64,000 nt of DNA from an uncultured Candidatus Rokubacteria bacterium (GCA_963762145.1 CAVXJS010000014.1:32001-96000); one strand, 5' to 3'; positions 6,351 to 24,101 are shown, numbered from the stretch's first letter. Notes: generated by a model not told the origin, from the sequence alone. Numbers and translations: made by a program.

Positions 6351-6428
6351 GGTGACCGTAGCTCAATTGGTTAGAGCACTGGACTGTGGCTCCAGGGGTT
6401 GAGGGTTCGATTCCCTTCGGTCACCCCA
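6351..6428 (+). tRNA. tRNA-His (GTG)
   Basis: G-1, acceptor gtgaccg/cggtcac, anticodon arm ctgga-ctGTGgc-tccag, T-loop ttcgatt, CCA end. Confidence 0.96.
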
Positions 6429-6451
6429 CTCCTGAAGTCGGCCAGGCTCGG

Positions 6452-6528
6452 GCGCCCATAGCTCAGCTGGATAGAGCGTTAGCCTCCGGAGCTAAAGGTC
6501 AGAGGTTCGAATCCTCTTGGGCGCACCA
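6452..6528 (+). tRNA. tRNA-Arg (CCG)
   Basis: Acceptor gcgccca/tgggcgc, anticodon arm ttagc-ctCCGga-gctaa, T-loop ttcgaat, CCA end. Confidence 0.96.
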
Positions 6529-6573
6529 TTTTTTGGTGTAGAAGTTCTGATGTAGCAGCACCCGCTACGACGC

Positions 6574-6653
<80 letters not shown>

Positions 6654-6654
6654 A

Positions 6655-6689
6655 GACAAGGGGTTCCGGGTTACCGGGACCCCTTCGTC
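6655..6689 (+). terminator. Hairpin downstream of tRNA-Lys
   Basis: gacaaggggttccgg-gtta-ccgggaccccttcgtc inverted repeat. Confidence 0.55.
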
Positions 6690-7226
6690 GTCTCTACAGC
6701 TGGCTCATGTGTGATCGCTTGCGTGATTTTCTGCGGGGTCAGTACGGTATCGAGGCGAGCGACGGCGGAACGCAGGTGCTCTGGCGATAGGTGGGCATAG
6801 CGCATTACCATCGCCAGGGAGCTGTGGCCGAGGAGGTCTTTCAGCTCGGGCAGGGTCGCGCCCCGCTGAATCGCCCACGAGGCGAAGGTGTGGCGGAGGT
6901 CGTGAAACCGGAAGTCCTCAGCCCGGCCGCCCTCACCGAGGCCTCCCAGTGCCCGCGGAAGGTGTACCAGCTCCGGGAGTCGAACATGAGTCGGTCACCG
7001 GGCGTTTCTCTGGCGTCCTGCGGGCCAGGATGGCGTCCGCTGGGCCGTTCAAGGGAACCTCCCGCCGGCGGCCTGACTTCGTGCGCTCGAGGAGCACCAC
7101 GCCGCGGGCGCCGTCTACCCGGTCCCAGGTCAGTCCGAGTAGCTCCCCTTGGCGCATGCCGGTGTAGAGGGCCAGCTCGGCGAGGTCCGCGAGGTTCGGG
7201 TTCTTCTGCGTCCGGCACTTCTCAAG
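6671..7226 (-). pseudogene. Tyrosine recombinase/integrase, catalytic-domain remnant (N-terminus lost, two frameshifts)
   Basis: Across frames: ALYTGMRQGEL, TKSGRRREVPL, FRFHDLRHTFASW, KDLLGHSSLAMVMRYAH; TAA at 6671-6673. Confidence 0.9.
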
Positions 7227-7277
7227 CTCGATCACCTGATCCGCCCGCTGCAGCAGCGACGGCGGGACCTTCAGGCC
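7227..7277 (-). pseudogene. ABC_sub_bind 3'-end ('tail') fragment fused in frame to the integrase remnant
   Basis: Encodes [17 protein letters not shown] with no stop, running straight into LEKCRTQKNPNLADLAELALYTGMR. Confidence 0.85.
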
Positions 7278-7294
7278 AGCGTCGTCGTCTCGAA

Positions 7295-8317
7295 TCACCT
7301 GCCGGAGTCTCCGACGATCGTCTCCGCGCGGCGCACCAATTCGACTCCGATCTCGGAAGCCCACTTGTTGTAGACCGGACGGGTCTTCTGACGAAACACC
7401 TGAAGCTCTGCGGGCGAGAGCTGGACCACCTCCATCCCATAAAGCCTCTCGAGGGTCGTGGGCAGAGTCATGTCGCGATCCAGTCCTTCCCGTGCTTCCC
7501 GCTTCTGCACGGCCATAATCTCCTCTCCGGCCTTCCGAACTATGTTCCGGTCCTCAGGTGTTAAGCTCATCCACGTCTTCCCACTGACAGCCAGGATTAA
7601 GGGGTCGATTGCGTAGTGCCATAACGTGACGTGCCTCTGTATTTCCCAAAGCCTGTACGGGATGATAAGAGCGAGCGGATTCTCGTGCCCATCCACTGTG
7701 CCTTGCTGCAAGGCGGTCAGAGCTTCGCCCCAATTCATACTTACTGGGTTCGCACCGAGCGCACGGAAGACCTCCATGCAGATCGGAACACCGACCACGC
7801 GGACCCTCAAGCCTTTAAGATCTTCTGGTCGGCGAACTGAGAGCGTTGAGTTCAGCTCGCGGAAGCCGTTCTCCCCCCAAGCGATTGGCACTACGCCCTT
7901 GTGCTCGATCAGCTTGAGCAAGCGTGAACCGGGATCCCCCGCTTGCACCGCATCAAGGGCGCCGTAGTTAGGGAACATGAACGGCATGGAGAAGAGGTTT
8001 AGCTCCTTCACCTGTGGAGACCAGTTGATAGTTGAGCCGATGGCAAAGTCAGCTCCACCTTGCTGCAAAAGCCGGAACTCCGTTGTCTGTTGATCCGCGA
8101 AGAGCCGCCCGTTGAAGTGGGGCTTAACCTGGATACGTCCCCCGGTCCGACTCCTCAGGGCGTCAGCAAATCTGATGGCGGCCCGGCCCCACGCGGTGTC
8201 CTCGTTCACGACGACGGACATCTTGAACTCGGACTTGTAGCCGCTCTGCGCCTCGGCGGCGAGCGGCGCGGCGAGGAGGCTTCCCGCTACTGTCCTGAGG
8301 AAGGTGCGTCTGTGCAC
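7295..8317 (-). CDS. dctP: TRAP transporter substrate-binding protein (DctP family), orphan
   Basis: WGENGFREL, DLKGLRVRV, ALQQGTVDGHENP; signal peptide of the ABC_sub_bind-head type (RRTFL..AGSLLAAPLAAEAQ); no dctQM nearby. Confidence 0.88.
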   Translation of the reverse strand: MHRRTFLRTVAGSLLAAPLAAEAQSGYKSEFKMSVVVNEDTAWGRAAIRFADALRSRTGGRIQVKPHFNGRLFADQQTTEFRLLQQGGADFAIGSTINWSPQVKELNLFSMPFMFPNYGALDAVQAGDPGSRLLKLIEHKGVVPIAWGENGFRELNSTLSVRRPEDLKGLRVRVVGVPICMEVFRALGANPVSMNWGEALTALQQGTVDGHENPLALIIPYRLWEIQRHVTLWHYAIDPLILAVSGKTWMSLTPEDRNIVRKAGEEIMAVQKREAREGLDRDMTLPTTLERLYGMEVVQLSPAELQVFRQKTRPVYNKWASEIGVELVRRAETIVGDSGR

Positions 8318-8406
8318 ACGGGACCCCCGCCTGACCGCCCGTGTAGGAGGGACCGGGCGGAGGACGGCCAAGCGGAAGGAAGTTACACCGTGCTGAGGCA
8401 GTCCGC

Positions 8407-8645
8407 TAGGACTTCCTGTCCGCCTTCAGGCAAGTATGTTTACGCTGGTTCAGTAGGTCGGCCAAGCGGGTTTCGAGCACCAGCATGATGCCAGCGCCGA
8501 CGAGCGTAGCCCACGGCCAATGGCTGGAATGCAGCGGCCAGCCCTCCGCGATCAGGACACCATCAGCATGATCGAGACATATTGAAGCACTGGGATCATC
8601 TTGCCTTGGCGACGTGCTCGCACGGGCACGAACGGATCATCCATG
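8407..8645 (-). pseudogene. Small membrane protein, disrupted
   Basis: GGAGG RBS; MDDPFVPVRARRQGKMIPVLQYVSIMLMVS* continues in another frame as EGWPLHSSHWPWATLVGAGIMLVLETRL. Confidence 0.35.
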
Positions 8646-8676
8646 ACCTCCCTATCGCACGGGGTTGGGTGATAGA

Positions 8677-8720
8677 GCCCGAAGGGGCAGTCTCAAGAGG
8701 GCGGCTCATCCCCTTCGGGC
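8677..8720. terminator. Hairpin downstream of the small lipoprotein gene
   Basis: Perfect 11-bp inverted repeat gcccgaagggg...ccccttcgggc. Confidence 0.5.
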
Positions 8721-8739
8721 GTGATCCGGGCGTGCTCAC

Positions 8740-9036
8740 TCAGCCTCGGATGAGATAGGCTCCGGGCGGCACGCGATATTGGAGTTCTTCGCAGGGACCG
8801 GGCGGCGGCTGATGCCCGGGTGGGCGATCAGGGAACCAGACACGACATTCCCCCGGCGGCGGATAGTGCCCACGTGGAATTCTGGGAGCGCCGGCCGCGG
8901 GATACGGCGGGGGTCCCGGTGCGCGGCCCGGCTCGTCGGCAACCACGACCGCGCACCCAGTCAGCACGACTACACTCAGGAGGAGACCGGCGACAAGTCC
9001 TGGCCCTCCCCGCGTGGTCAGTCGATGGTTAGTCAT
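8740..9036 (-). CDS. Small Pro-rich lipoprotein
   Basis: Lipobox VVLTGC; IPRGHYPPPGECRVWFPDRPPGHQPPPGPC; overlaps the upstream ORF end. Confidence 0.7.
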   Translation of the reverse strand: MTNHRLTTRGGPGLVAGLLLSVVVLTGCAVVVADEPGRAPGPPPYPAAGAPRIPRGHYPPPGECRVWFPDRPPGHQPPPGPCEELQYRVPPGAYLIRG

Positions 9037-9388
9037 GCCGCCCGCCATGCTTCCTACGCCAACCATGTGCGCCGGCCCACGGCGGTGGCCCGTCCTTGCC
9101 GCGGTTGTGTCTCCAGTACCTGTGCTCCCAGTCCCTGTGCTTATGGCTTCCGTATCCATGGCCTCGATAGTAGCGCGGGGCGTGGTACGAGTAGCCAGGG
9201 TGCCCATATCCGTAGATGGCATGGGGCGCATAAACCACCGGGGGACGTACCACGATGACCGGTGGCTGCGGCAGCCAAACTGATACCCCCAGCCCGAAAT
9301 CTCCCGCTCGGCCCGGTGTGGGGACAAGTAAAAAACCCATAGACACGCCCACGATGACGCTAGCAAATACCGCGGCGGCTCGTCTCAT
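9029..9388 (-). CDS. Small secreted His/Tyr/Arg-rich protein
   Basis: GGAGG RBS, signal peptide, PPVIVVRPPVVY, GPPPWAGAHGWR. Confidence 0.65.
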   Translation of the reverse strand: MRRAAAVFASVIVGVSMGFLLVPTPGRAGDFGLGVSVWLPQPPVIVVRPPVVYAPHAIYGYGHPGYSYHAPRYYRGHGYGSHKHRDWEHRYWRHNRGKDGPPPWAGAHGWRRKHGGRHD

Positions 9389-9560
9389 GCTCGCCCTCCT
9401 CGGCCGACCTGGGGCTGGACCCCGCGCGGGCCGTGGTGAAATCCATTTCGGCTTTCGACGCGGCGGGAGTAGCAAGTATTCGACAGCCACCGCCCTCCAG
9501 CTCACCGCAGCGGCGGTGCACCTGCATGAAGGCGTCGAGGGCGGCGAGTAGCTCGGGCAT
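9360..9560 (-). pseudogene. Short ORF (..HRRCGELEGG..) directly following an SBP tail, probably truncated
   Basis: ATG 8 nt after the tail stop; MPELLAALDAFMQVHRRCGELEGG then low-information sequence. Confidence 0.35.
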
Positions 9561-9567
9561 CGTGGAG

Positions 9568-9750
9568 CTACTCGATTACCTGTTCCGCCCGCTGCAGGAG
9601 CGACGGTGGGACCGTCAGGCCGAGGGCTTCAGGTTGATGACCAGTTCGAATGTCGTGGGCTGCTGGACTGGAGATCGCCGGGTTTGGGTGGGCTCCGGCG
9701 CGCGACGGCAACGAAGTTCGGCCCGTACGCGATGAGGCCTCTCGCGGGCC
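9568..9750 (-). pseudogene. ABC_sub_bind 3' fragment ('tail' remnant)
   Basis: GLIAYGPNF...[39 protein letters not shown], with small deletions. Confidence 0.85.
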
Positions 9751-9780
9751 GACCGATGAGGACCCAGGATACGTCCGGGG

Positions 9781-10581
9781 TCATCCTATCGCCGTCACGA
9801 TATGGCTCACCGCGGGCGTCGCCCAACCTTCGTCGTCGACGTACTGTTTGGTTGCCTCAGTCACCTCGGCGATGATGGCGTCGAGACCGCCTTCTCCCTG
9901 CCCGGTCAACGCGCCCATCATGGTTGGTGCGCCACCCACCACGGCCCTGACCAAGTGCTCGGCGGATCGGAATCGAAGCATCTTGGCCTCGGCCCAGAGC
10001 TTGACCTCTCGGAACCCGGCGCCTACGAGGAGGGCTCGGATCGCGCCTGCCTCTCCAAAACTGAACGGCGGGAGCGCTGCCTTTTCGGGACCGATCCGGC
10101 GGGCGAGGGCCTGCTCGAGCACGTGATAGCCCGGAGTGTGTTCGACCGAGCGCCAGCAGGACAACGCAAGGCGGCCGCCGCGCTTGAGCACCCGGTGCAT
10201 CTCTGAGAGCGCCGCTGCTTTGTCAGGAAAGAATTGGAGCCCCTGCTGGCAGACCACAGCGTCGAGGGTCGCATCCGGTAGGGGAATCTTGACCACGCTG
10301 CCTTCCACCCATTCGATGCTCTGACTTGGAGCAGCGAGTCGGGCGACCGCGAGCATACCAGGGTTGAGATCCAGGCCCGTGACCTTGCCCGTTGGTCCCA
10401 CGCGTTCCGCCAAAAGCCTTGTCACGGCGCCTGTACCACACGCGACGTCGAGCGCCAGTTCCCCGGTCCGCACACCGGCCGCCTGTACCAGGTCCGGGGC
10501 CCAGCGCGCGAAAATCGCGGGGACCATGTGCCGCTCATAGATTTCCGCCGGGGTTCCCGAGATCTGCAGCGTCGCCGGCAT
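9781..10581 (-). CDS. Class I SAM-dependent methyltransferase (UbiE-like)
   Basis: ALDVACGTG, GLDLNPGML, DAVVCQQGLQFFPD, LKRGGRL; AGGAGG RBS. Confidence 0.9.
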   Translation of the reverse strand: MPATLQISGTPAEIYERHMVPAIFARWAPDLVQAAGVRTGELALDVACGTGAVTRLLAERVGPTGKVTGLDLNPGMLAVARLAAPSQSIEWVEGSVVKIPLPDATLDAVVCQQGLQFFPDKAAALSEMHRVLKRGGRLALSCWRSVEHTPGYHVLEQALARRIGPEKAALPPFSFGEAGAIRALLVGAGFREVKLWAEAKMLRFRSAEHLVRAVVGGAPTMMGALTGQGEGGLDAIIAEVTEATKQYVDDEGWATPAVSHIVTAIG

Positions 10582-10659
10582 GGGAGTCCTCCTATAAGCT
10601 ACGTGGATTGTCTAACCATACTGTCGTTGGACGGCGTGAGCCCGAGCGCAAAGTGCGAG

Positions 10660-10764
10660 TCACGTCGCTGCCGAGCGGTCTTGGCCGCCTCTTGCGTCTC
10701 GGCGGAGCGGCACGGCGAGGAGGCCGCCCGCCAACGCGCCGAGGAAGGTCCGGCGACCGATCAC
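10660..10764 (-). pseudogene. ABC_sub_bind 5' ('head') remnant, 34-codon mini-ORF
   Basis: GTG overlapping the upstream TGA; MIGRRTFLGALAGGLLAVPLRRDARGGQDRSAAT*. Confidence 0.75.
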
Positions 10765-11747
10765 TCGATCACCCGATCCGCCCTCAACAGGACGGATGGC
10801 GGAATGGTCAGGCCGAGGGTCTTGGCCGTCTTGAGGTTGATCACCAGCTCGAACTTCGTGGACTGCTCGACGGGAAGCTCCGCCGGCCTGGTCCCCTTCA
10901 GGATCTTGTCCACCATCCGCGCCGCCTGCTTGCCGAGCTCGTACGTATTGGCGGCATAGGAGGCCAGCCCACCCCGCTCTACGAAGAACCCACTCGTGAA
11001 CATCGTCGGCATCACTCCTCGCGACGCGACCTCGAGGATGAACCCGGGAATGTTCGAGCTGAGGAACCGGAGGGAAAAGATCCCGTCCGCGTCACCCTTC
11101 CGGAGTCCGGTGATCGTTGCCCGCGCCTCCTCTTCGGTCCTGACCGGCCTCTCCACCAGCGTGAGACCGAGCCGCAGGGCGGCGTCGCGGTGGACGGCCA
11201 GTTGCGCCACGGCGGCCGAATTCGTAGCGTCGTAGGGCACCAGCACACGCTTCAACCCGGGAATCAGTTCCCGGAAGATCTCCATTCTCTTGGGCACGAG
11301 CTGGACGTCCAGATCGGCGACCCCGGTGATGTTGCCGCCCGGGCGGGCGAGACTCCGCACCAGCCCCAATCCGACCGGATCGCCCGAACCGATGACGACG
11401 ATGGGAATTTGATTCGTGGCGACCTGGGCCGCCTTCGCCGCCGGCCCGCTTTCCGTCGTCACGATGAGGTCCACCCGGTGCCGAACGAGGTCGCGAGCGG
11501 CCGCGGGCAGCTCGGCGACCTTGCCTTCGGTGAAGCGCACCCCGATCGTGAAATCCTTGTCCTCGCGGTACCCGAGCTCCTGAAGGCCGTCGCGCAGCCC
11601 GACAATGGACGGCGTCGGCCCCCAGGATTCCGTGAGCGCCCCGATCTTGAACAGGCGAGCCGGCTGAGCGAAGGCGTCGCGGCCGAGCAACCCTGCCCCC
11701 GAGACCAGGAACCCGACCACGAGCTGGCGACGACGCAGGTCCGTCAT
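10761..11747 (-). CDS. ABC_sub_bind (COG2984-type) substrate-binding protein, copy F
   Basis: [48 protein letters not shown]; ATG at 11747. Confidence 0.9.
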   Translation of the reverse strand: MTDLRRRQLVVGFLVSGAGLLGRDAFAQPARLFKIGALTESWGPTPSIVGLRDGLQELGYREDKDFTIGVRFTEGKVAELPAAARDLVRHRVDLIVTTESGPAAKAAQVATNQIPIVVIGSGDPVGLGLVRSLARPGGNITGVADLDVQLVPKRMEIFRELIPGLKRVLVPYDATNSAAVAQLAVHRDAALRLGLTLVERPVRTEEEARATITGLRKGDADGIFSLRFLSSNIPGFILEVASRGVMPTMFTSGFFVERGGLASYAANTYELGKQAARMVDKILKGTRPAELPVEQSTKFELVINLKTAKTLGLTIPPSVLLRADRVIE

Positions 11748-11751
11748 GCGC

Positions 11752-12351
11752 TCAGGGGGCTGGCTCGGCCAGCAGGGCCTCGATGAGCGCACGTGCCGGA
11801 GGACTCCCCCATTGACGTGGTCCCACGCCGAAAGCGACGGCGCGCCCATCCCGACCGAGGACGAAGCTCGTCGGAAGTCCGATCACGCCATACAGACGAT
11901 TGTTCTTGCCCGCCTGATCGAGCACGAGCGGAAAGGTCAAGCGCAGCTCCGTGGCGTAGGTCGCGACTGCTTGCTTGTCCTCCCGGGCGTTGATCCCGAT
12001 GACGGCGAGTCCTCGCCACGCGAACTCTCGGTGGAGTCCCTCCAGTATGGGCATCTCCGGGCGACACTCGAGACACCAGCTCGCCCAGAAATTGACGATG
12101 ACCACCTTTCCACGCAGGTCGGTCAGCGAGAGCACTCGGGCGTCGAGTGTGTGGCCACTGAAGTGTGGAGGTTTCGTACCGGAGCGGTAGCCGACGAGAT
12201 CGAGACGCGTGAGCAGGGCCGTCACCGCCGGCTGCTCGGCACTCGCGGAACTCCACACGGCAACCACGAGCAGGGCGCTGGCGAGCAGTCGGCCCCGGCC
12301 GGCGAGCCGGCAGTTCAGCCCACCTCCCGGCTCGGCCGGCCCGGACGCCAT
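11752..12351 (-). CDS. TlpA/ResA-family thiol-disulfide oxidoreductase
   Basis: GKVVIVNFWASWCLECRPEMP, YGVIGLPTSF; signal/anchor region. Confidence 0.88.
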   Translation of the reverse strand: MASGPAEPGGGLNCRLAGRGRLLASALLVVAVWSSASAEQPAVTALLTRLDLVGYRSGTKPPHFSGHTLDARVLSLTDLRGKVVIVNFWASWCLECRPEMPILEGLHREFAWRGLAVIGINAREDKQAVATYATELRLTFPLVLDQAGKNNRLYGVIGLPTSFVLGRDGRAVAFGVGPRQWGSPPARALIEALLAEPAP

Positions 12352-12353
12352 CG

Positions 12354-12917
12354 TCAGCGTTTTCCGATGATCTCCCGGATATCCCGCAACAGGGTGTCGC
12401 TGTACACCACGGTGGTCGTCGGGTTGTCGATGATCCACTTCTTGCGCAGGATGCCCTGAGGATCGATGAGGAACAAGGCCCGGTTCGCGGTCATGGTCTT
12501 TTCATTGAGCACGCCGTAGCTGCGCATGACCTTCCGCTCGGGAAAGTCGCTGAGCAGCGGGAACGGCAGCTTCAGGGATTCGGCAAAGGTCTGCTGCGAG
12601 AAAGAAATGTTGGCACTGGCCCCGAGGTTCTGAATCCCCAGGTCTTCGAAACGCTTGTAGTCGGCCTTCCTGGCTGACAGGTTCGCCGCTCAGGTTGGCG
12701 AGAAGTCGGCGCCATAGAACTCGAGGAGGACCCACTTCTTGCCCCGAAAATCCGTGAGGGAGACATCGGCTCCCATGGTACCGGGCAACGTGAAGTCGGG
12801 TGCGGGCTGGCCCACCTCCACGGCCACGGCCGGCCCGGGACCGATGACGATCGACGCAATCGCGAGGGTCGCACCCACCAGGATCCAGCCAAACGTGCCC
12901 CGGCCCAGGACCATCAT
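12354..12917 (-). CDS. Exported AhpC/TSA (peroxiredoxin-like) protein, probable selenoprotein (UGA at 12690-12692 read as Sec)
   Basis: GAAGGAG RBS; signal peptide; VGQPAPDFTL...VLLEFYGADFSPT-UGA-AANLSARK...FPLLSDF...NRALFLIDPQG; frame stays open 111 codons past the UGA. Confidence 0.85.
12660..12678 (-). promoter_or_regulatory. Candidate bacterial SECIS hairpin
   Basis: 11 nt after the UGA: GUCAGCC-AGGAA-GGCCGAC stem-loop (one mismatch) with G in the apical loop. Confidence 0.55.
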
Positions 12918-13299
12918 GTGCGTCTCCTTCAGAAGGATTTGGACGTTCACGGCGCGTTGTTGTCGAATGCTGCCGGAGGGAAGTGATTCTCGTCAGCCGG
13001 TCGCCCGTCGATCACACCGGCTCCGGATCGGACCGCGTTGCTACCGGATTGCGCTGGCCGGCACCACGCTTGACTTGCCGGAATCCTACCACAGCTTGAT
13101 AGAGGACTGCTTGCGCCGAAGTGTGCCCGGGCGGTGCCATGGTCGAGGGGAGCAAGCGCGCGTCGTGCGTCCGCTGGGACACGTCGAACGTGCCGGCATG
13201 AACCAAGAGTTTCTTCGTGACGCGCCGGCACACGGGGCGCTCGCTGACTACGGGCCTGGGCGGCGCGTGCTAAGTCGTTGCAAGCGGGTGAGAAACCCA

Positions 13300-13348
13300 T
13301 GGTGGGCTGGGACGGGATTGGACCGCCGACACCAGGATTCTCAGACCT
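13300..13348 (-). pseudogene. Degenerate 3' half of a tRNA (Phe-like), relic att site
   Basis: Minus strand aggtctgagaatcctggtgtcggcggtccaatcccgtcccagcccacca: anticodon-arm remnant, T-arm and CCA; no D-arm or 5' half. Confidence 0.75.
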
Positions 13349-13430
13349 AGGCCTCAGTTCGTGTAAGTATGCGTAACTGCTTACGACAGTTGCCCGAGTT
13401 AGGCACAACTTGGGCACAAACTCTGGGCCA

Positions 13431-14408
13431 CTACTCGATCACCTGATCCGCCCGCTGCAGGAGCGACGGCGGGATCGTCAGCCCGAGCGCCCTGGCAGTC
13501 TTGAGATTGATCACAAACTCGAACTTGGTTGGCTGCTCTACGGGAAGGTCGGTCGGCTTCGCTCCCTTGAGGATCTTGTCGACGAAATCGGCGGTGCGCC
13601 GGTACAGATCCAGGAAGCTCGGTCCATAGGACAGCAGCCCTCCCGCTTCGACGAACTCCCGAACGTTATACATCGTCGGCAGCCGCACACCCAACGCCAA
13701 GGTGTTCATGCTGATCCGGTGAGTGGTTACGAGTGGGTCGTTGCAGACATAAAGTGCCTCCGCGCGGCCCTTGAGCGCCTCGAAGGCGGGCGCGATATCC
13801 TCCGGGCGCCGGATTTCTGATGCGACAACTTCGAGGCCAAGCGTGCGGGCCGTTGCCTGAACCTCGCGCATCTCCACCACGGCGGCGGGAGTGTCGCTAT
13901 TGGCCATGATCGCCAAACGGCGCAGACCGGGGACGACCTCGCGCACCAGTCCGAGTCGCTTGGCAGCTAGGTCGGTCGCCTGGAGCGACAGGCCGGTGAC
14001 GTTGCCGCCCGGTCGCGCCAGACTCGCGACCAGGCCGGTGCCGACCGGGTCCCCCACCGCCGCGAACACGATCGGGATGACCGATGTCGCTTGCTTTGCC
14101 GCGACGACTTGTCGGGTTCCCCCCGTGACAATGACATCCACCTTCAGGCGGACGAGCTCGGCCGCGATCTCGGCCAGGCGCTCGACGCGTCCTTCCCCCC
14201 AGCGATACTCGATCGCAACATTGCGACCCTCGATCCAGCTGAGTTCGCGCAGTCGCTCCAAAAAGGCGCCGACCCGGGGGCTCTCGAGCGAAGGCGTGGT
14301 AGGACCCAAGAACCCGATGGTTGGTCGCTTCGCCTGCTGGGCGCGCGCAACGAGCGGCGCGGCGAGGAGGCCACCAGTTAAGGTGCTAAGGAAGCTGCGC
14401 CGGTCCAC
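13431..14408 (-). CDS. ABC_sub_bind substrate-binding protein, copy E
   Basis: GTG overlapping the upstream TAG; [15 protein letters not shown]; DPVGTGLVASLARPGGNVTG; ends [14 protein letters not shown]. Confidence 0.92.
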   Translation of the reverse strand: MDRRSFLSTLTGGLLAAPLVARAQQAKRPTIGFLGPTTPSLESPRVGAFLERLRELSWIEGRNVAIEYRWGEGRVERLAEIAAELVRLKVDVIVTGGTRQVVAAKQATSVIPIVFAAVGDPVGTGLVASLARPGGNVTGLSLQATDLAAKRLGLVREVVPGLRRLAIMANSDTPAAVVEMREVQATARTLGLEVVASEIRRPEDIAPAFEALKGRAEALYVCNDPLVTTHRISMNTLALGVRLPTMYNVREFVEAGGLLSYGPSFLDLYRRTADFVDKILKGAKPTDLPVEQPTKFEFVINLKTARALGLTIPPSLLQRADQVIE

Positions 14409-15403
14409 TACTCGATCACCTGATCCGCCCGCTGCAGGAGCGGCGGCGGGATCGTCAGGCCGAGAGCCTTGGCGGTCTTGAGGTTGATGACCAACTGGAC
14501 GTTTGTCGGACGGTGGATCGGGAGCTCGGAGGGCTTGGCGCCCTTGAAGATGCGATCGACATAGCCGGCCGCGTGCCGGTGGAGATCGGGTTCGTTGGAG
14601 TCGTACGCCATTAGCCCATTGGCGTCGGTCACCATCAGGGCCCACGGGTAGATCGCCGGAAGCTTGTGGCGGGCGGCCAGCTCGGTCAGTCGCGCGCGGT
14701 TAACCACGAAGATGCTCTCGCCGGTGACGACGAGACCATTCGCGCCCTCCTTGAGGCCAGCCTCGAGGGCGGCGGGAAGATCGTCGCCGGCGCGGATATC
14801 GCGGATCAGCAACGCCACCCCCAGCGACGGCGCCGCCGCCTCCAGGACTTTAACCTGGAGTGGAGCGATCGGATCGGCAAGGTTCGAAAGCACGAGAACG
14901 CGCGAGAGTTTCGGCACCGTCTCCTTCAGCAGCTCCAGGCGCTTGCCGGCGAGGTCCGAGGTCATCATGGTCGCGCCGGTGATGTTGCCCGCGGGGCGGG
15001 CGAGGCTTGAGATGAGCCCCGTGCCCACGGGGTCTCCCAGGGACAGCATGACGATAGGCACCGTCTGCGTCGCCTTCTTCGCGGCAAATCCTCCGGGTGT
15101 AGTGGTCACCGCGATCACATCCGCCTTGCGGCGCAGGCACTCCTGAGCCAGTTCCGCAAAACGTTCGTGCTGGCCGCCGGCGGACAGGTAGTCGATGGTT
15201 ACGGTCCGGCCGTTCACGTAGCCCAGCTCGGATAGGCGTTGGAAGAAGGCTTCCCATCTCGGCGAGCGCGTCTCGAACGTCCCCGGATCGAAGATGAGAA
15301 AGCAGAGTCGGGGGAGCTTCTTGGCTGGCTGCGCCTCCGCGTCGAGCGGCGCGGCGAGGAGGCCGCCAGCGAGGGTGCCGATGAACGCCCGCCGGTTCAT
15401 CAC
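14408..15403 (-). CDS. ABC_sub_bind substrate-binding protein, copy D
   Basis: [19 protein letters not shown]; [20 protein letters not shown]; ends [14 protein letters not shown]. Confidence 0.92.
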
Positions 15404-15725
15404 TCGATCACCTGGTCCGCCCGCTGCAGGAGCGACGGCGGGATCGTCAGGCCGAGGGCCTTCGCAGTCTTGAGGTTGATGACCAGCTCGAACTTGGTCG
15501 GTTGCTCGACCGAAAGGTCACCGGGCTTCGGGCCCTTCAAGATCTTGTCCACGTAAGCGGCGGCACGTCTCCACAGATCTGGGAGGTTTGGACCGTACGA
15601 CATGAGGCCTCCAGCCTCGACGTAGACCCGAGCCGGATATATGCGGGCAGCCGGCTCCCGGCCACCGCGTCGACGAGGCGCGCACGGTGCGTCACGAAGA
15701 GTGGGTTATCGGCGGGTAGCACACC
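15400..15725 (-). pseudogene. ABC_sub_bind 3' fragment (5'-truncated, frameshifted)
   Basis: [27 protein letters not shown] / [27 protein letters not shown]...ADQVIE*. Confidence 0.87.
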
Positions 15726-15766
15726 CTCGATACGTTCGCTTGCCTGAAAGTGTTCATGCCAGAGTG

Positions 15767-16279
15767 CTACCGCTCAGCGCGTGCCCTCAAGAGCTCCGTC
15801 AGGGTGAAGACAAAGTCCCTCTGGGCCTCCGGCTTGTGGCATTCGAAGCAGCCCTTGATGTTCGCCTTCGGGTCGCGGCTGCCGTCACCGAGGAAGCGCG
15901 CATATTCCCACTCGCCATTCCGAAGCTCTTCGGGATACTCAGCCCCCCAACCCGGCCGCTTCTCCATCACTACAACTCGGTCGAGCCGCCCGCGCACAAG
16001 GCGTCCGTTCGGGTCCTTCACCAGCTCGCCCTTCTCATCCACGAGGGCCTTGAACGTTGGCAGACTGAGGATGGTGCCATAGGGTAGCGGCTGACCAGGC
16101 TGCAACACCTTGAAGGCTTCAGGATTGATGTAGGCCTCTCGTAGCTCCTTGAGATCGGGCTGGTCGAGCACCGTGTACAGCACATGGTTCTGATAGAGCG
16201 GAAAGGCGACTTTCTCTTGGCCGGCCAGGGCAGGTGTGGTCAGGATCAAGAATAGCGTGACGAGGGCTCGAAGGACCAT
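15767..16279 (-). CDS. Cytochrome P460 / c'-beta family protein
   Basis: AGGAGA RBS, signal peptide, PLPYGTIL, VMEK..GWG, GEWEYARF, C-terminal CFECHK heme site then DFVF. Confidence 0.85.
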   Translation of the reverse strand: MVLRALVTLFLILTTPALAGQEKVAFPLYQNHVLYTVLDQPDLKELREAYINPEAFKVLQPGQPLPYGTILSLPTFKALVDEKGELVKDPNGRLVRGRLDRVVVMEKRPGWGAEYPEELRNGEWEYARFLGDGSRDPKANIKGCFECHKPEAQRDFVFTLTELLRARAER

Positions 16280-16395
16280 GGTATCTCCTTGGAGCGGTCA
16301 GGATGGGGCGGGCGTCACTATCTCAAAGGGCAAGCTCGCGGGCAAGGCAGAAGGAGCCAACGCGCCAACGGGGCTTTCCCGTGCTCGTCAACGGA

Positions 16396-16590
16396 TCATG
16401 GGTCGCCGCCACCAGTGCAGCCACCAGCCACAAAGCCACGTCCCGCCCGGTGGCACTCCCGCGCCCGCTCCGCGTCTCTCTCCTCCCATGCCTGGCGGAT
16501 GGCCTCCCTGCTGGGCCTGTCACATCGAGCAGCCTGGGAGCGCGCCGACCAAGAGGATTCCACCCAGAGTGTCTGGAAGGATCTCCCTCA
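16396..16590 (-). pseudogene. Possible small lipoprotein remnant
   Basis: GGILLVGALPGCSM* then, in another frame, EAIRQAWEERDAERARECHRAGRGFVAGGCTGGGDP*. Confidence 0.35.
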
Positions 16591-16627
16591 ACGCTCAAGC
16601 TCCCAGTGGGCGCAATCGAGTGTGGCC

Positions 16628-16732
16628 CTACTCGATCACCGAGCGATCCTGGCCCGCCTGCTGCGCCTCGGCGGCGAGCGGCGCGGCGAGGAGGCCCCCA
16701 GCCAAGGCACCGATGAACGCCCGCCGATCCAT
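16628..16732 (-). pseudogene. Head-tail mini-gene of ABC_sub_bind (entire middle deleted)
   Basis: [34 protein letters not shown]: signal peptide joined to the terminal VIE-TAG. Confidence 0.85.
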
Positions 16733-17703
16733 CACTCGATCACCTGATCCGCCCGCTGCAGGAGCGACGGCGGGATTGTCAGGCCGAGGGCCTTGGCCGT
16801 CTTGAGGTTGATGACTAGTTCGAACTTCGTCGGCTGCTCGATGGGAAGGTCGGCGGGCTTGGCGCCCTTGAGAATCTTGTCCACGTAGGTCGCGGCGCGC
16901 CGGAACATCTCTGGATAGCTGGCCCCATAAACCAAGAGGCCGCCGGCATCAGCAAACCCCCTGAGCGTAAACACGGCCGGCAGGCGGCTCTTTGATGCGA
17001 ACTCCACGATTCGTATCCTGTGGGAATAGAAGAAGATGTCCCCTTGGACGATGAGGGCGTCGGGGCGCTTCTTCTCCACCGCGGCGAATGCGGTGTCGAA
17101 CTCGGTTGGACTTTTCACTCCCACGAGGTCCAGGCGCACGCCCAAACGCGTCGCCGCAGCCTTCGCCTCTCTGACGAGACCGTCATGCAGCGGATTGGCC
17201 GGATTCCACAGTACGGCCACCTGCGAAAGCTGCTTGGGAACGAGTTCCCTCAGCAGCTCGAGCCGCTTTGCCTCAAGGCCGGGATTGTGAGCGGACAACC
17301 CGGTGATGTTCCCGCCGGGCCGCGCCAGGCTCGCGACGAGCTTGGTTCCAACGGGATCTCCGCTCAGCATGACGATGGGGACTGTCTTGGTCACGTTTTT
17401 CGCGGCCAAGGTTGAAGGCGTACCCCAAGTAACAATAACGTCAGTGCCGACTCTGGCGAGGTCGGCTGCGAGCCGAGGAAGCCCCTCGTCGCTCCCTTCT
17501 CCCCATCTGTACTCGAGCAGGATCGTCTGTCCTTCGACATAACCGAGATCGCGTAATCCTTGCCGGAAGTCCTCCCAGAGTGGTGAATTCTGCGCAACGA
17601 TGCCGACTCGGGGGATCCTCTTTATCGGCTGTGCGTCGGCTGCTCGCGGCCCGGCCAGCGCCCCGGCCAGCGAGGTCAGCAGGAAGCGGCGGCGGCTTAT
17701 CAT
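16732..17703 (-). CDS. ABC_sub_bind substrate-binding protein, copy C
   Basis: MISRRRFLL; DPVGTKLVASLARPGGNITG; ends [14 protein letters not shown]. Confidence 0.92.
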   Translation of the reverse strand: MISRRRFLLTSLAGALAGPRAADAQPIKRIPRVGIVAQNSPLWEDFRQGLRDLGYVEGQTILLEYRWGEGSDEGLPRLAADLARVGTDVIVTWGTPSTLAAKNVTKTVPIVMLSGDPVGTKLVASLARPGGNITGLSAHNPGLEAKRLELLRELVPKQLSQVAVLWNPANPLHDGLVREAKAAATRLGVRLDLVGVKSPTEFDTAFAAVEKKRPDALIVQGDIFFYSHRIRIVEFASKSRLPAVFTLRGFADAGGLLVYGASYPEMFRRAATYVDKILKGAKPADLPIEQPTKFELVINLKTAKALGLTIPPSLLQRADQVIE

Positions 17704-18696
17704 TCGATCACCTGATCCGCCCGCTGCAGGAGCGACGGCGGGATCGTGAGGCCGAGGGCCTTGGCGGTCTTGAGGTTGATCACCAGCTCGAACTTGGTGG
17801 GCTGCTCGATCGGTAGATCGGCGGGTTTGGCGCCCTTGAGGATCTTATCCACGTAGGTGGCGGCGCGGCGGAACAAATCAGGAAGGTCCGGCCCATAGGA
17901 CATGAGGCCTCCGTCCTCGGCCCAACCTCGGAACGAGTACACCGTAGGCAGCCGGTTCTTGGTCGCCAGGTCCACGAGGCGTCGTCGGTGAATGTCGAAC
18001 ATCGGCGTCACGGCGATGTACACGGCGCCAGCCTGAACTCTCGCCATGTCCGCGAAGGCCCGATCGAAGTCCTCCGGACTGCGCGCCTCCACGAAATGCA
18101 GCCGTACCCCGAGCGCCCGCGCCGTGACCTCTGCTGCTTTGACTCTGTCCTTCCTGGCGCCCTCCGGCATGGCATCTGGCTTCAACAGAAAGGCAACCGT
18201 ACTCAGCCCAGGAACCGCCTGCTTCAAGAGTTCTAGCGACTTGCCGACGAGCTCCCAGGTGACGATGGACAAGCCCGTGACGTTGCCACCCGGTCGCGCA
18301 AGACTGGAGACAAGTCTCTCTTGCACGGGATCGCCCGAAGCGGTGAACACGATCGGCAGAGTCGTCGTGGCCTGCTTCGCGGCCAGGGCGGCGAGGGTGC
18401 CGCCGGCGGCGACGATCACATCGAGCTTGAGCGCAACCAGCTCGGTCGCAAGAGCGGGGAACCGGTCGGTTTTTCCCCCCGGCATCCCGGTATTCGATCA
18501 GGAGGTTGCGGCCTTCGATGTAGCCTAGCTTGCGCAATCCTTCGATGAAGGCATTGCGGTTGCGGGGATCGGCGGCCGCCAGGTTGAGCGACAGGTAACC
18601 GATGCGAGCGTTCCTGTCCGCGTGCTGCGCCTCGACAGCGAGCGGCGCGGCGAGGAGGCCACACGCGGCAGCCGCGATGAAGGCTCGGCGGTCCAC
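17700..18696 (-). CDS. ABC_sub_bind substrate-binding protein, copy B (one extra base in a G6A5 run near 18475; pseudogene or sequencing error)
   Basis: N-part MDRRAFI...EYRDAGGK and C-part GGKTDRFPALATELV...ADQVIE join if one A is removed. Confidence 0.85.
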
Positions 18697-19682
18697 TACT
18701 CAATCACCTGATCCGCCCGCTGGAGGAGCGACGGCGGGATCGTCAGGACGAGGGCTTTGGCGGTCTTGAGGTTGATGACCAGCTCGAACTTGGTCGGCTG
18801 CTCGACAGGCAGGTCGACGGGTTTCGCGCCTTTCAGTATTTTGCCGACATGAAAGGCCCCCCGGCGGGCCATTTCGGCGTAGTCGGGCCCGTAGGTGAGA
18901 AGAGCGCCGGGTGGAATCCAAATCCGGTTCAATCCCATGATTGGCAGCCGATGCGTCGCGGCATATTCCACGATGCGTGCGCGATACGGGTACACGGCGA
19001 TGTGCACATGCAGCGCGTCGGGGCGCTCGCGTGACATCGCCACCAGGGCCGGCTCGAGATCCGCTGGACCGTGGATCTCCACCGAGACCAGCGCCATTCC
19101 CGCGGTCTTGGCAATGGCCTCCATGTCCTTCCACCCCGCTGCTGACGCCGGATTCTCCGGGTTCCATAGAACGGCGAGGCGAGACAACCTGGGAAGGGCC
19201 TCACGCATGATGTGCAGCGCCTTCGCTTGCAGGTCAGGATACTGAGCGGCTATTCCGGTGACGTTCCCGCCCGGCCGAACCAGGCTCGCGACGAGACCGT
19301 CGCGGACCGGATCGCTGAGCCCGATGAAGACGATCGGAATCGTGCTGGTCCGTTCCTTGGCGGTACGAGCTACTAACGTACTGGATGTCACGATGATATC
19401 TACCTTCATCTGCAGCAGATCGGTCACGAAGTTGGACGCCCGCTCATTCTTCCCCTCTAGGAATCGCCCCTCAATGACGAGATTTCTATCCGTGACGTAG
19501 CCCTGCTCACGGAGGCCTTGGAGAAAAGCCGACCAGTATCGAGAGTCTTCCGGATTCGTAGGGGACACGGTCCCGATGTATCCGATGTGTGGGATCTTCG
19601 TCGCTTGCTGCGCCGCCGCGCCGAGCGGCGCGGCGAGGACGCCGCCCGTCAAAGTGCTAATGAAGTCTCGTCGGGTCACCAT
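18696..19682 (-). CDS. ABC_sub_bind substrate-binding protein, copy A
   Basis: MVTRRDFI..GGVLAAPL; DPVRDGLVASLVRPGGNVTG; ends [14 protein letters not shown]. Confidence 0.92.
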   Translation of the reverse strand: MVTRRDFISTLTGGVLAAPLGAAAQQATKIPHIGYIGTVSPTNPEDSRYWSAFLQGLREQGYVTDRNLVIEGRFLEGKNERASNFVTDLLQMKVDIIVTSSTLVARTAKERTSTIPIVFIGLSDPVRDGLVASLVRPGGNVTGIAAQYPDLQAKALHIMREALPRLSRLAVLWNPENPASAAGWKDMEAIAKTAGMALVSVEIHGPADLEPALVAMSRERPDALHVHIAVYPYRARIVEYAATHRLPIMGLNRIWIPPGALLTYGPDYAEMARRGAFHVGKILKGAKPVDLPVEQPTKFELVINLKTAKALVLTIPPSLLQRADQVIE

Positions 19683-19686
19683 CGAA

Positions 19687-22647: not shown

Positions 22648-23158
22648 GCAGGGGGCCTCCCAGCGAGCCGGACCGGGAATGGTCGGACAGGTGGCACGAG
22701 GGTAGTCTGCCGAGTGGGAGGGGTCAAGGATGGTCCGACGGTCGCTGCGCCGGCGCTTGGGCGGTCCATTGTTAGGGGCTGTGGTTTAGTGTTGCCGGCC
22801 GGGGACCCCATCTTCCATGTCGCTCCTTTCCGGGCCCATTCGGGCCCATCACGACGGGACTGTTCCGAAGTTCATCTGGTTGAGACCCTCGTCAGAAATC
22901 GACGGGGCGGTACGCTCGCTCTAACTGATGAGAATTTGGCTGAATCGACTCCTCTCCTGAAAAAATATTTTGTCGATGAATGGCTTCCCTCGCACACTCG
23001 GCCTCGCGATTTTTTGGGGGTAGGGGGAGGGGGTCTCCCGGAAAACGAGGCCCGCCAGGCCATCCAGCCGCAAGGGGAGACCTGCGCTGCTGCCTGTCTG
23101 GCTCGATCCAGCTGATCCACCAACAGGTGCTTGCGCCTGCTTGAGCCTATACGAACGC

Positions 23159-23413
23159 CTACTTATCCGCGATCGCTTTGCTCTTGCGTGATCTTTGAGT
23201 GCTGCGCTCGAGCCATCGCTCGAGCTCCGCCCGCGGGAACCGCACGGTTCGGCCGAGGCGGAGGGCTGGCATGCTGGCGTCCTCGAGGGCCCAGCGCTGC
23301 ACGGTACGCGAGGATACTTGAAGGAGCTCGCCTACTTGCTTCGCGGTGAGGTACGGCGTCGCTGCCGACTTGGCCGGCTCGAACGGCGCTGTTCCTACCA
23401 TTGCTAAGGTCAC
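23159..23413 (-). CDS. Excisionase-like helix-turn-helix DNA-binding protein
   Basis: AAGGAGG RBS; YLTAKQVGELLQVSSRTVQRWA...LRLGRTVRFPRAEL. Confidence 0.8.
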   Translation of the reverse strand: MTLAMVGTAPFEPAKSAATPYLTAKQVGELLQVSSRTVQRWALEDASMPALRLGRTVRFPRAELERWLERSTQRSRKSKAIADK

Positions 23414-23774
23414 GGGTATCACCTCCTTTCTATCGTGCTTATCTGTTGAGCCGGGGATGGTGCACATTTTGTCTGCGGTCCGCGGACCGTAGCTCGTGGG
23501 GCGCCGGGGTCAGCGGGCACGCTTCGAGAGAGGTAGGCTGGGGCCGGCGCGGATTGAATTGAGCGCCGAAGCCAGTAAGATTGCCTTCTCCCGGCCCCCG
23601 ATGCCGACGAGCTCGTTAAGCTAATCCCTTGCTTCTCGCGTACCTAGGGACGGCGGGAGCGGCGTGGGCGTTACGTGGCATCTCGACTATGTTGGGCCCT
23701 CATCGCGGTCATTCGGGGCATTCCGGGGTATTTTCGGCTCGTGACAGCTCTCGCGCGCGCGTAGCGATGTGCGA

Positions 23775-23837
23775 ATCTGTGTATCTGTGTATCTGTGCAT
23801 CTGTAGGATCTGGCGATCCTAGGACAGATACACAGAT
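23775..23837. repeat. Iteron-like 8-bp tandem repeats plus an inverted copy
   Basis: ATCTGTGT x2, ATCTGTGC, ATCTGTAG; central taggatc-tggc-gatccta; inverted ACAGATACACAGAT. Confidence 0.7.
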
Positions 23838-24058
23838 CTTACAGAACACACACATCACACACATTCATCTTCTCCCTGCGTCGGCCCTGGTGTACCCGGT
23901 GGTACCACTACAGGCGCACTAAGAATCGATCCCCTCTATTTCTCTAAGGCTGGTGGTGGTACCACCACCTACACCAGGCCGTCAGAAGGGCGCCTCATCG
24001 GTCTCCGCCGAGACCGCCGGCTCGGCAACGGCGACGGGGTCTGCAACCACCTTCAGTC

Positions 24059-24101
24059 ATCAGCGGGTCCAAGGTTCGAGTCCTTGACGGCCCACCAAAC
24101 A
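24059..24101 (+). repeat. attR core: duplicated 3' end of tRNA-Lys
   Basis: Exact 43-bp copy of 6611-6653. Confidence 0.95.

What the first reader, a model, noticed from the sequence alone, without database searches (positions are those of the whole stretch)
7227..19682. Candidate new system: SBP gene ends acting as shared arms for a cassette array
Seen: six ABC_sub_bind genes plus remnants, all on the minus strand, with no permease or ATPase gene in the island. The 3' tail ('..GATCAGGTGATCGAG-stop', [12 protein letters not shown]) occurs 10 times (7227, 9568, 10761, 13431, 14408, 15400, 16628 VIE only, 16732, 17700, 18696). The head 20-mer GCCTCCTCGCCGCGCCGCTC (GLLAAPL) is identical at ~8261, 14352, 15344, 16676 and 18640 and nearly so at 10706 and 19623, whereas gene middles are very divergent. 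Unrelated cargo sits between a head and a tail remnant three times: the methyltransferase, the cytochrome P460-family gene and DctP. Inference: the conserved ends work as recombination arms, letting binding-domain middles or foreign genes be swapped into SBP loci. This would be an integron-like gene-capture array without attC sites.
Basis: partly seen in the sequence, partly recalled or inferred. Interest (0 to 1): 0.85.

Follow-up and report, generated by a model that had tools for sequence, protein, structure and literature searches.

The report
Binding-protein gene arrays recombining at shared ends
A soil bacterium carries rows of related nutrient-binding-protein genes whose conserved beginnings and ends are ordinary protein features, but they have also served as crossover points that copied whole gene interiors, and two unrelated genes, from one row to another.

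Summary
The repeats are real. The tail 15-mer occurs 9 times and the head 20-mer 7 times in 7227-19682, all on the minus strand.

They are the Tat-type signal peptide and the C-terminal motif of PF04392 binding proteins. The tail motif is conserved as far as a solved structure, 3LFT. Extra codon identity at the ends is equally strong between genomes, and it persists between phyla. Protein constraint therefore explains it, helped by a ribosome-binding site in the last codons, and recombination does not.

The ends have nevertheless been crossover sites. The DctP and methyltransferase inserts are 98.6% and about 99% identical between two inverted arrays, and the identity stops inside heads and tails. 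One binding-protein interior is 98.6% identical to that in another Rokubacteria genome, whose ends are about 91% identical and whose flanks are unrelated.

The P460 "cargo" came from two deletions, not from capture. I found no integron integrase and no attC-like repeats.

The array lies in a decayed genomic island at tRNA-Lys. The scan had already noted a GAF-kinase-then-PF04392 array in another genome (e1-753506).

Verdict: partly supported, and a variant of ordinary gene conversion in a multigene family.

The parts
6574..6649 (+). tRNA-Lys(CTT), last of a His-Arg-Lys tRNA cluster (6352-6649). Its 3' end is the left copy (6611-6653) of the island's 43-base direct repeat.
   Evidence: ARAGORN; exact repeat
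24059..24101 (+). Right copy of the 43-base direct repeat. It marks the far border of a roughly 17.4-kb lower-GC island (6654-24101) that holds the whole array.
   Evidence: GC is 61-68% inside and 72-75% in the first 6 kb of the window.
6841..7226 (-). Truncated, frameshifted tyrosine recombinase (the island's integrase), joined in frame to a tail remnant.
   Evidence: PF00589 hit. A full 355-aa relative lies next to the same tRNAs in G015; DNA identity is 89.7% up to base 7227.
7227..7277 (-). Tail remnant ([17 protein letters not shown]) after the DctP stop. It is the right end of the DctP cassette.
7295..8371 (-). Orphan DctP (TRAP binding protein) whose signal peptide is the SBP-family head (20-mer at 8261-8280). 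Cassette 7227-8280 is 98.6% identical to C14:13572-14625.
9571..9685 (-). Decayed tail remnant with indels. It is the right end of the methyltransferase cassette.
9781..10581 (-). Class I SAM methyltransferase, the 'cargo'. The second copy, in array A, is frameshifted.
10690..10766 (-). Head remnant (out of frame with the cargo), directly after the stop of the preceding SBP.
10761..11849 (-). Intact PF04392 binding protein (probable start near 11744).
11752..12992 (-). Redoxin gene (11752-12438) and a frameshifted AhpC/TSA gene (12357-12992). These are non-SBP genes inside the array.
13431..14411 (-). Intact PF04392 binding protein; its start overlaps the stop of the preceding gene.
14408..15403 (-). 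Intact PF04392 binding protein.
15403..15645 (-). 5'-truncated SBP remnant (profile positions 248-328).
15767..16279 (-). Cytochrome P460-family gene with its own signal peptide.
16360..16640 (-). Segment that in relative G018 follows an intact SBP gene (91% identical).
16628..16735 (-). Mini-ORF made of a head plus 'VIE-stop'. It is an SBP gene with nearly the whole interior deleted.
16732..17703 (-). Intact PF04392 binding protein. Its interior is 98.6% identical to a stand-alone gene in another Rokubacteria MAG (L018); its ends are about 91% identical.
17700..18696 (-). Frameshifted PF04392 gene (two overlapping ORFs).
18696..19682 (-). Intact PF04392 binding protein, first of the array.
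19687..22647 (-). Four-GAF histidine kinase directly upstream of the array. A 75%-identical paralogue heads the second array.
23159..23509 (-). HTH_17 protein (excisionase-like) near the island's far border.

Best explanation
The region is an operon-like tandem array of Tat-exported orphan PF04392 solute-binding-protein paralogues behind a GAF histidine kinase. It sits inside a decayed integrative island at tRNA-Lys of an uncultured Rokubacteria (Methylomirabilota) genome.

The 'head' is the family's twin-arginine signal peptide. The 'tail' is the family's C-terminal motif. Its last codons (CAG GTG ATC GAG) also carry a Shine-Dalgarno-like AGGTGATC for the next gene, whose start overlaps the stop as TGATG or TAGTG.

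These ends are held constant mainly by selection on the protein and on translational coupling. Because they offer 20-40 bases of exact identity in many copies, ordinary homologous recombination (inferred to be RecA-type gene conversion, double crossover or unequal exchange) occasionally uses them. Whatever lies between a head and a tail is then copied into another family locus, and genes are deleted or truncated.

Non-SBP genes got between the ends by rare illegitimate events. One was an in-frame fusion of a DctP mature domain to the head. Another was the replacement of an SBP interior by a methyltransferase. Others were plain deletions of flanking SBP genes, as around P460. No dedicated recombinase is involved.

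Shown: the repeats, the family assignment, the cross-phylum codon pattern, the three mosaics, the deletion origin of the P460 case, and the island borders. Inferred: the recombination mechanism, the role of the Shine-Dalgarno-like sequence, and docking of the orphan proteins to permeases encoded elsewhere.
For: - Family features. PF04392 matches run to the last residue. The tail motif aligns to the end of chain 3LFT.
- Family size and layout. The genome has 61 tails and 45 full-length copies, plus many fragments in stop/start-overlapping arrays. Arrays and remnants also occur in other phyla: 131 full copies and 65 fragments in 77 loci.
- Codon identity, observed over expected. Interior about 1.0-1.1, head 1.76, tail 1.66. 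The values are the same for G000 against other Rokubacteria, and 1.37-1.55 against or among Proteobacteria.
- Selection on the protein. Two neighbouring genes share 56 identical tail residues with 17 of 168 synonymous differences.
- DctP mosaic. Identity starts exactly at the head 20-mer and ends at the last tail codon. There are 15 differences, all within the first 465 of 1054 bases.
- Methyltransferase mosaic. There are 12 differences in 1156 columns; the junction outside is 80-88% identical and DNA beyond it is below 50%.
- SBP 16732 against L018. Interior 728/738 identical, head 76/84, tail 126/138; Fisher p = 4e-4; flanks unrelated.
- Length of exact homology. The exact 39-mer tail occurs 11 times and the exact head 20-mer 18 times in the genome.
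- Origin of the cargo cases. DctP relatives in another family of the order have their own Sec signal, and one (G029) has a DctQ-like ORF directly downstream; a same-genus relative has the head fusion. G018 has an intact SBP where the window has head+VIE-stop.
- Orphan status. A few family members sit beside PF02653 permeases elsewhere in the genome, for example C21:515798-518568.
Against: - Only three mosaic events were found.
- Within the genome no SBP-SBP pair reaches 92% identity, apart from one C3/C14 duplicate. If the arms worked often, recent swaps of SBP interiors should be seen too.
- How a foreign gene first comes to lie between the ends is not explained.
- None of the 77 loci from other species showed a head, 300 bases or more, then a tail. 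That sample was chosen around intact genes.
- The genome is a metagenome bin (88% complete, 5.4% contamination). Frameshifts could be partly sequencing errors.
- The hairpin predicted in the tail shows no compensatory changes (0 of 18 pairs), so an RNA-level role is neither supported nor excluded.
Confidence: 0.6

Rival explanations
1. A dedicated, integron-like gene-capture system. The tail-head junction would be a specific recombination site at which a site-specific recombinase inserts and excises cassettes, whether SBP interiors or foreign genes.
For: The cassette-like geometry recurs. DctP is present twice plus one fragment, the methyltransferase twice, and an ABM-domain gene lies between remnants at C11:313.7-314.5 kb. 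A tyrosine recombinase fragment abuts the array.
Against: That recombinase is the tRNA-Lys island integrase. It is truncated and frameshifted here. Its full-length relative scores 36.6 bits against the integron-integrase model (cut-off 265). No attC-like inverted repeats lie at the junctions; only 2 unrelated palindromes occur in 12.8 kb. Remnant boundaries vary: heads end at profile positions 28, 30, 57 and 74, and tails start at 248, 266, 285, 289, 303 and 309. Tail remnants decay with indels. The P460 case is explained by deletions.
Confidence: 0.04
2. Protein constraint only. The ends are conserved because the protein needs them and play no part in recombination. The duplicated cargo segments would be products of an old segmental duplication, of unrelated transposition, or of misassembly at repeats.
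For: The codon-identity excess is family-wide and cross-phylum. The tail is conserved as far as 3LFT. Neighbours with identical tail peptides differ at 10% of bases. The genome is a bin, and a chimera has been reported elsewhere in it.
Against: A whole-array duplication cannot leave cargo at about 99% identity and neighbouring SBP genes at 50-82%. All six ends of the three high-identity tracts fall inside or exactly at a head or a tail. In the L018 pair the ends are 6-7 times more diverged than the interior. The two cargo copies differ by substitutions and one frameshift, so they are not a collapsed repeat. Six runs from two studies hold 91-93% of the 31-base words of the region.
Confidence: 0.2
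3. The DNA-level invariance of the junction reflects a nucleic-acid element. This could be a Shine-Dalgarno sequence plus start/stop overlap for translational coupling, and perhaps an mRNA hairpin that stabilises or processes each cistron. In this reading, remnants persist because they supply these signals to the downstream gene.
For: AGGTGATC lies 8-9 bases before the overlapping start in 12 of 14 aligned junctions, and the last 45 bases are nearly invariant. Tail-only remnants directly precede intact genes here and in other phyla. Stop/start overlaps are frequent: 43 consecutive hits lie within 6 bases of each other in the external loci. That AGGTGATC pairs with the 16S rRNA 3' end is textbook knowledge; this organism's 16S was not checked.
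Against: This explains only about the last 15 bases. The strongest codon excess is at profile positions 311-320 and in the head. The predicted hairpin has 0 of 18 pairs with compensatory change. The tail at 7227 is kept although no gene start follows it. This reading complements the best explanation and does not replace it.
Confidence: 0.3

Closest known systems
Lineage-specific expansions of orphan solute-binding proteins (Bug/TctC family of Bordetella; 434 TTT binding proteins in Rhodoplanes sp. Z2-YC6860, PMC5994714; passages read)
   Same: Dozens of binding-protein paralogues with few cognate membrane parts. Tandem arrays of up to nine genes. Divergent sequences within an array. Proposed roles in uptake or sensing.
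   Different: The family is different (PF04392, an ABC type, not TctC). The passages I read from that paper (search for 'recombination': 0 occurrences) do not describe conserved-end mosaics, remnants or foreign genes between ends.
Segmental gene conversion in multigene families with conserved flanks around variable cores (pilE/pilS of Neisseria, vlsE of Borrelia, msp2 of Anaplasma). Recalled from general knowledge, not checked in a call.
   Same: Conserved 5' and 3' stretches bracket a variable interior and serve as homology for copying interiors between loci. Truncated or silent copies accumulate.
   Different: I saw no single expression site, no evidence of programmed or high-frequency switching, and no link to a host. 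The proteins are periplasmic. Unrelated genes are carried between the flanks.
Integrons (IntI, attI, attC cassettes)
   Same: The outcome resembles an array of same-strand, promoterless units in which unrelated genes can sit between repeated boundary sequences.
   Different: There is no integron integrase and no attC-like imperfect inverted repeats. The boundaries are coding sequence of a protein family and vary in position.
PF04392 / TrpX-type aromatic amino-acid binding proteins (PDB 3LFT, 3LKV, 6HNI; NF041285)
   Same: The domain matches over the full length, including the C-terminal motif.
   Different: The score against the TrpX equivalog is 132.9 bits, below the cut-off of 390, so the ligand is unknown. 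These genes have a Tat-type signal, occur in arrays and have no adjacent permease.
tRNA-integrated genomic islands with tyrosine integrase and a direct repeat of the tRNA 3' end
   Same: A 43-base exact repeat of the tRNA-Lys 3' end marks both borders. An integrase lies next to the tRNA and an HTH_17 gene at the far end. GC is lower inside. The closest relative has different content at the site.
   Different: The integrase is truncated by fusion to an SBP tail and is frameshifted, so the island is presumably immobile.

Membership tests
Integron | Integron-type tyrosine recombinase (IntI) next to the array | tested here: not met
   The full-length relative of the adjacent recombinase (G015) scores 36.6 bits against TIGR02249, cut-off 265. 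The copy in the window is truncated and frameshifted.
Integron | attC sites (imperfect inverted repeats) bounding each cassette | tested here: not met
   The inverted-repeat scan of 7000-19800 found 2 palindromes, neither at a junction. The junction is coding sequence. No dedicated attC model was run.
Integron | Cassettes excised as circles and re-inserted at attI | not testable with these tools
PF04392 ABC_sub_bind binding proteins | Full-length domain match above Pfam's cut-off | tested here: met
   Six genes score 136-187 bits against a cut-off of 25.9. The nearest structure is 3LFT, E = 2.8e-33.
PF04392 ABC_sub_bind binding proteins | Adjacent ABC permease and ATPase | tested here: not met
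   None of the 77 PF02653 matches lies in the window. The genes are therefore orphans; a few family members elsewhere have adjacent permeases.
tRNA-site integrative genomic island | Direct repeat of the tRNA 3' end at both borders, plus an integrase next to the tRNA | tested here: met
   The 43-base exact repeat is at 6611-6653 and 24059-24101. A PF00589 fragment lies at 6933-7226.
tRNA-site integrative genomic island | Presence or absence varies among close relatives | tested here: met
   In G013, whose search match at this site is 98% identical and whose aligned 2.1-kb flank is 93.9% identical, homology ends at window base 6943 and other genes follow.
Gene-conversion cassette families (conserved flanks, variable core) | Mosaic copies with breakpoints in the conserved flanks | tested here: met
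   Three mosaics were found, and all six tract ends lie in or at a head or a tail.
Gene-conversion cassette families (conserved flanks, variable core) | Frequent or programmed switching into an expression site | not testable with these tools
   No population or time-series data could be examined.

The most novel reading that the evidence does not exclude
In Rokubacteria, and perhaps in other soil phyla, the orphan PF04392 family evolves as a modular cassette system that needs no dedicated enzyme. Protein function and translational coupling keep the signal-peptide head and the C-terminal tail nearly invariant. These ends act as universal homology arms. Any interior can then be copied by ordinary homologous recombination into any other family locus, within a genome and between genomes. 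The interior may be another binding domain or, once it has landed there, an unrelated gene. The result would be an integron-like shuffling of periplasmic functions.
Probability: 0.25. Interest if true: 0.6.

Novelty: new variant of a known kind. Interest (0 to 1): 0.4.

Why it matters
Large families of orphan binding proteins are common in soil bacteria, and how they diversify is poorly understood. Here the family's own conserved ends double as recombination handles. They moved a whole binding-domain interior between genomes and moved unrelated genes between arrays. One result is a TRAP-type binding protein that now uses the ABC family's export signal. If this is general, it offers a simple, enzyme-free route to modular exchange of periplasmic functions. 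It also means that paralogue trees built on whole genes in such families would be misleading. As it stands it is a modest, well-documented example of concerted and mosaic evolution, not a new mobile-element class.

Tried and rejected
- Read evidence. Runs holding the region were found (8 runs with at least 69% of the words, from 2 studies). Laying them on the island was not possible. I therefore made no test for circular junctions, island excision or strain variants.
- RNA structure in the tail. A hairpin is predicted, but 0 of 18 pairs show compensatory change. This is uninformative.
- Intragenomic gene conversion as the cause of end identity. I rejected this because the codon excess is the same between genomes and is still present between phyla.
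- The head as a general signal peptide of this organism. I rejected this. Of 36 copies of the head 20-mer (up to 2 mismatches), 32 lie in SBP-profile hits. The other 4 are the window's DctP and methyltransferase heads, one SBP pseudogene and the C11 head.
- The native context of the methyltransferase. The best match in the 30 relatives is 53% identical, so its origin was not found.
- Head-cargo-tail arrangements in other species. None was found in 77 loci, but the sample is biased towards intact genes.
- Literature. The searches 'PF04392', 'ABC_sub_bind', 'Rokubacteria + substrate-binding proteins + ABC transporter', and 'gene conversion + solute-binding protein + paralogs + tandem' found no description of this family's arrays or end mosaics in the held library. 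One broader search returned only irrelevant papers.
- Other 'gap' segments between remnants on C19, C8 and C23. They showed no clear coding gene.

Full report
**Observation.**
- The tail 15-mer (up to 2 mismatches) is found 10 times in the window, 9 of them between 7227 and 18713, all on the minus strand. Shuffles give 0.30.
- The head 20-mer (up to 3 mismatches) is found 8 times, 7 of them at the stated places. Shuffles give 0.17.
- Pfam assigns PF04392 (ABC_sub_bind) to five intact genes and one frameshifted gene. It assigns DctP, a class I methyltransferase and cytochrome P460 to the three 'cargo' ORFs, and four GAF domains plus a kinase core to the gene just upstream.
- None of the genome's 77 PF02653 permease matches lies in the window.

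**What the ends are.** Genome-wide there are 61 'RADQVIE-stop'-type tails and 111 profile hits. Forty-five of the hits are full-length genes and the rest are fragments. Many sit in arrays in which the stop of one gene overlaps the start of the next (TGATG or TAGTG).
- The head is a twin-arginine signal peptide (RRxF, a hydrophobic stretch, then AEAQ).
- The tail belongs to the Pfam domain, which matches to the last residue. It aligns to the very end of chain 3LFT, which the phmmer alignment shows ends in the same motif.
- The family forms arrays in many phyla. Seventy-seven loci from Rokubacteria/Methylomirabilota, Proteobacteria, Binatia and others held 131 full genes and 65 fragments.

**Is the DNA identity more than protein constraint?** I asked how often the same codon is used when the amino acid is the same, and divided that by the expectation from the family's own codon usage.
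- Among the 45 paralogues the ratio is about 1.0-1.1 in the interior. It is 1.3 in the most conserved interior block, 1.76 in head columns 11-20 and 1.66 in tail columns 311-320.
- The same values appear when this genome's genes are compared with those of other Rokubacteria bins (1.76 and 1.66). Lower but clear values appear against Proteobacteria (1.38 and 1.55) and among Proteobacteria from different genomes (1.37 and 1.49).
- The excess is therefore a property of the family and is not produced by exchange inside this genome.
- Two adjacent genes (16732 and 17700) have 56 identical C-terminal residues but differ at 17 of 168 bases, all synonymous. That is the signature of selection on the protein.
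- The last codons hold AGGTGATC 8-9 bases before the next start. This would pair with the 16S rRNA 3' end (textbook knowledge; this organism's rRNA was not checked).
- A hairpin is predicted in the tail but has no compensatory changes (0 of 18 pairs).

**Evidence that the ends have nevertheless been crossover sites.** A second, inverted array lies about 25 kb away on the same contig (C14:8200-18858). It also sits behind a GAF kinase, which is 75% identical to the one in the window. Three mosaics were found.
- *DctP cassette.* Window 7227-8280 is 98.6% identical to C14:13572-14625. The identity begins exactly at the head 20-mer and ends at the last tail codon, with unrelated DNA beyond. All 15 differences lie in the first 465 of 1054 bases.
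- *Methyltransferase cassette.* It shows 12 differences in 1156 aligned columns. The tail-head junction just outside is 80-88% identical, and everything beyond is below 50%. The copy in the second array is frameshifted.
- *An SBP interior.* SBP 16732-17703 has a 96.8% identical counterpart in another Rokubacteria bin (L018), where it is a stand-alone gene with unrelated flanks. Its interior is 728/738 identical, its head 76/84 and its tail 126/138 (Fisher p = 4e-4). The tail is no closer to its partner than to unrelated paralogues.

An all-against-all search of SBP regions at 92% identity or more found these two cassettes as the only long intra-array duplicates. The one other case is a C3/C14:284k duplicate.

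Tails also show locus-specific residues at one variable column. It is Q in this genome, A in L018 and in 6 of 7 genes of L048, and R in L074. This fits either local homogenisation or co-evolution with a shared permease.

Exact identity long enough for homologous recombination exists. The 39-base tail string occurs 11 times and the head 20-mer 18 times.

**How the 'cargo' got there.**
- *DctP.* Relatives in another family of the order have their own Sec-type signal; in one of them (G029) a DctQ-like open frame follows directly, judged by eye from the translation. A same-genus relative (G015) already has the SBP head fused at the same point. Another (G014) has no tail remnant after the stop. A DctP mature domain was therefore fused in frame to the family's export signal in this genus and became an orphan.
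- *Methyltransferase.* It has no close relative in 30 related genomes (53% identity or less). It lies between an out-of-frame head and a tail remnant that is decaying with indels.
- *P460.* This is not an insertion. The 'head' is a 34-codon mini-ORF (head plus VIE-stop). Relative G018 has an intact SBP followed by the same 280 bases at 91% identity. The 'tail' is the 3' part of a different, 5'-truncated SBP.
- *Elsewhere in the genome.* A head is followed by an ABM-domain gene on C11, and a third DctP fragment lies on C22.
- *Boundaries.* Remnant boundaries vary. Heads end at profile positions 28-74 and tails start at 248-309. This argues against a site-specific mechanism.

**Context.** The whole array lies in a roughly 17.4-kb island bounded by an exact 43-base repeat of the tRNA-Lys 3' end (6611-6653 and 24059-24101).
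- GC in the island is 61-68%, against 72-75% in the first 6 kb of the window.
- At the tRNA side is a tyrosine recombinase fragment (PF00589). It is frameshifted and joined in frame to the tail at 7227. A full 355-residue relative sits next to the same tRNAs in G015.
- An HTH_17 gene lies at the far side.
- In G013, whose search match here is 98% identical (the aligned 2.1-kb flank is 93.9% identical), homology stops at base 6943.
- The recombinase is not of the integron type: 36.6 bits against a cut-off of 265. No attC-like inverted repeats lie at the junctions.

**Caveats.**
- The genome is a metagenome bin, 88% complete with 5.4% contamination.
- Six public soil runs from two studies hold 91-93% of the region's sampled 31-base words. 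The best holder may be the source sample.
- Some frameshifts may be sequencing errors.

**Known comparisons.**
- The closest described phenomenon is the lineage-specific expansion of orphan binding proteins, with tandem arrays of up to nine genes. Examples are the Bug/TTT family in Bordetella and Rhodoplanes (PMC5994714; passages read).
- Mechanistically the nearest analogues are multigene families that exchange variable cores through conserved flanks, such as pilS, vls and msp2. I recall these from general knowledge and did not check them here.
- PF04392 proteins with solved structures bind aromatic amino acids (PMC10443332, Table 1 passage). The proteins here score below the TrpX equivalog cut-off, so their ligands are unknown.
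Both arrays here repeat it.
- My searches of the held library found no description of end mosaics in this family.

**Verdict.** The ends are ordinary, anciently conserved protein features and not purpose-built arms, and there is no integron-like machinery. They have nonetheless demonstrably served as crossover points that moved interiors and two unrelated genes. I class this as a new variant of a known kind and score its interest at 0.4.

Noticed in passing
window 6611-6653 and 24059-24101: An exact 43-base direct repeat of the tRNA-Lys 3' end brackets a roughly 17.4-kb lower-GC island. The island has a dead integrase and an HTH_17 gene, and the closest relative has other genes at this site.
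   Followed up: yes
G000 C14:8200-18858 (L001:200-10858): A second, inverted SBP array lies behind a paralogous GAF kinase. It has several frameshifted SBP genes and its own copies of the DctP and methyltransferase cassettes.
   Followed up: partly
window 8372-8480 (minus strand) and L095 about 5100-5260: The upstream leader of the head-DctP gene resembles the leader of a stand-alone SBP in relative G018 (shared '...GAAGGCNGACANGAAGTCCTAGC...'). It may be a family promoter or 5' UTR element.
   Followed up: no
window 12357-12992 (minus strand): An AhpC/TSA peroxiredoxin gene is split by a frameshift, next to an intact redoxin gene, in the middle of the array.
   Followed up: partly
whole family, profile column 319: The residue before 'RAD' in the tail is locus-specific: Q here, A in L018 and L048, R in L074. 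This points to local homogenisation or to co-evolution with a shared membrane partner.
   Followed up: partly
G000 C3:5472-8949 and C14:283606-286855: A 92-98% identical duplicate holds a broken SBP and PF02653 permease genes. One copy lies at a contig end, so this may be a real duplication or a bin or assembly redundancy.
   Followed up: no
window 7295-19682: Third-position GC is 0.73-0.86 in the island genes measured (0.75-0.86 in the SBP genes), against 0.92-0.96 in neighbouring core genes. In L018 the shared SBP gene is also lower in GC (0.63) than its flanks (0.70-0.71).
   Followed up: partly
G000 C22:139241-139477 (L005:17241-17477): A tail-head junction without a stop codon is followed by only the first 12 residues of the DctP mature domain. 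This is a third, truncated copy of the DctP cassette.
   Followed up: partly
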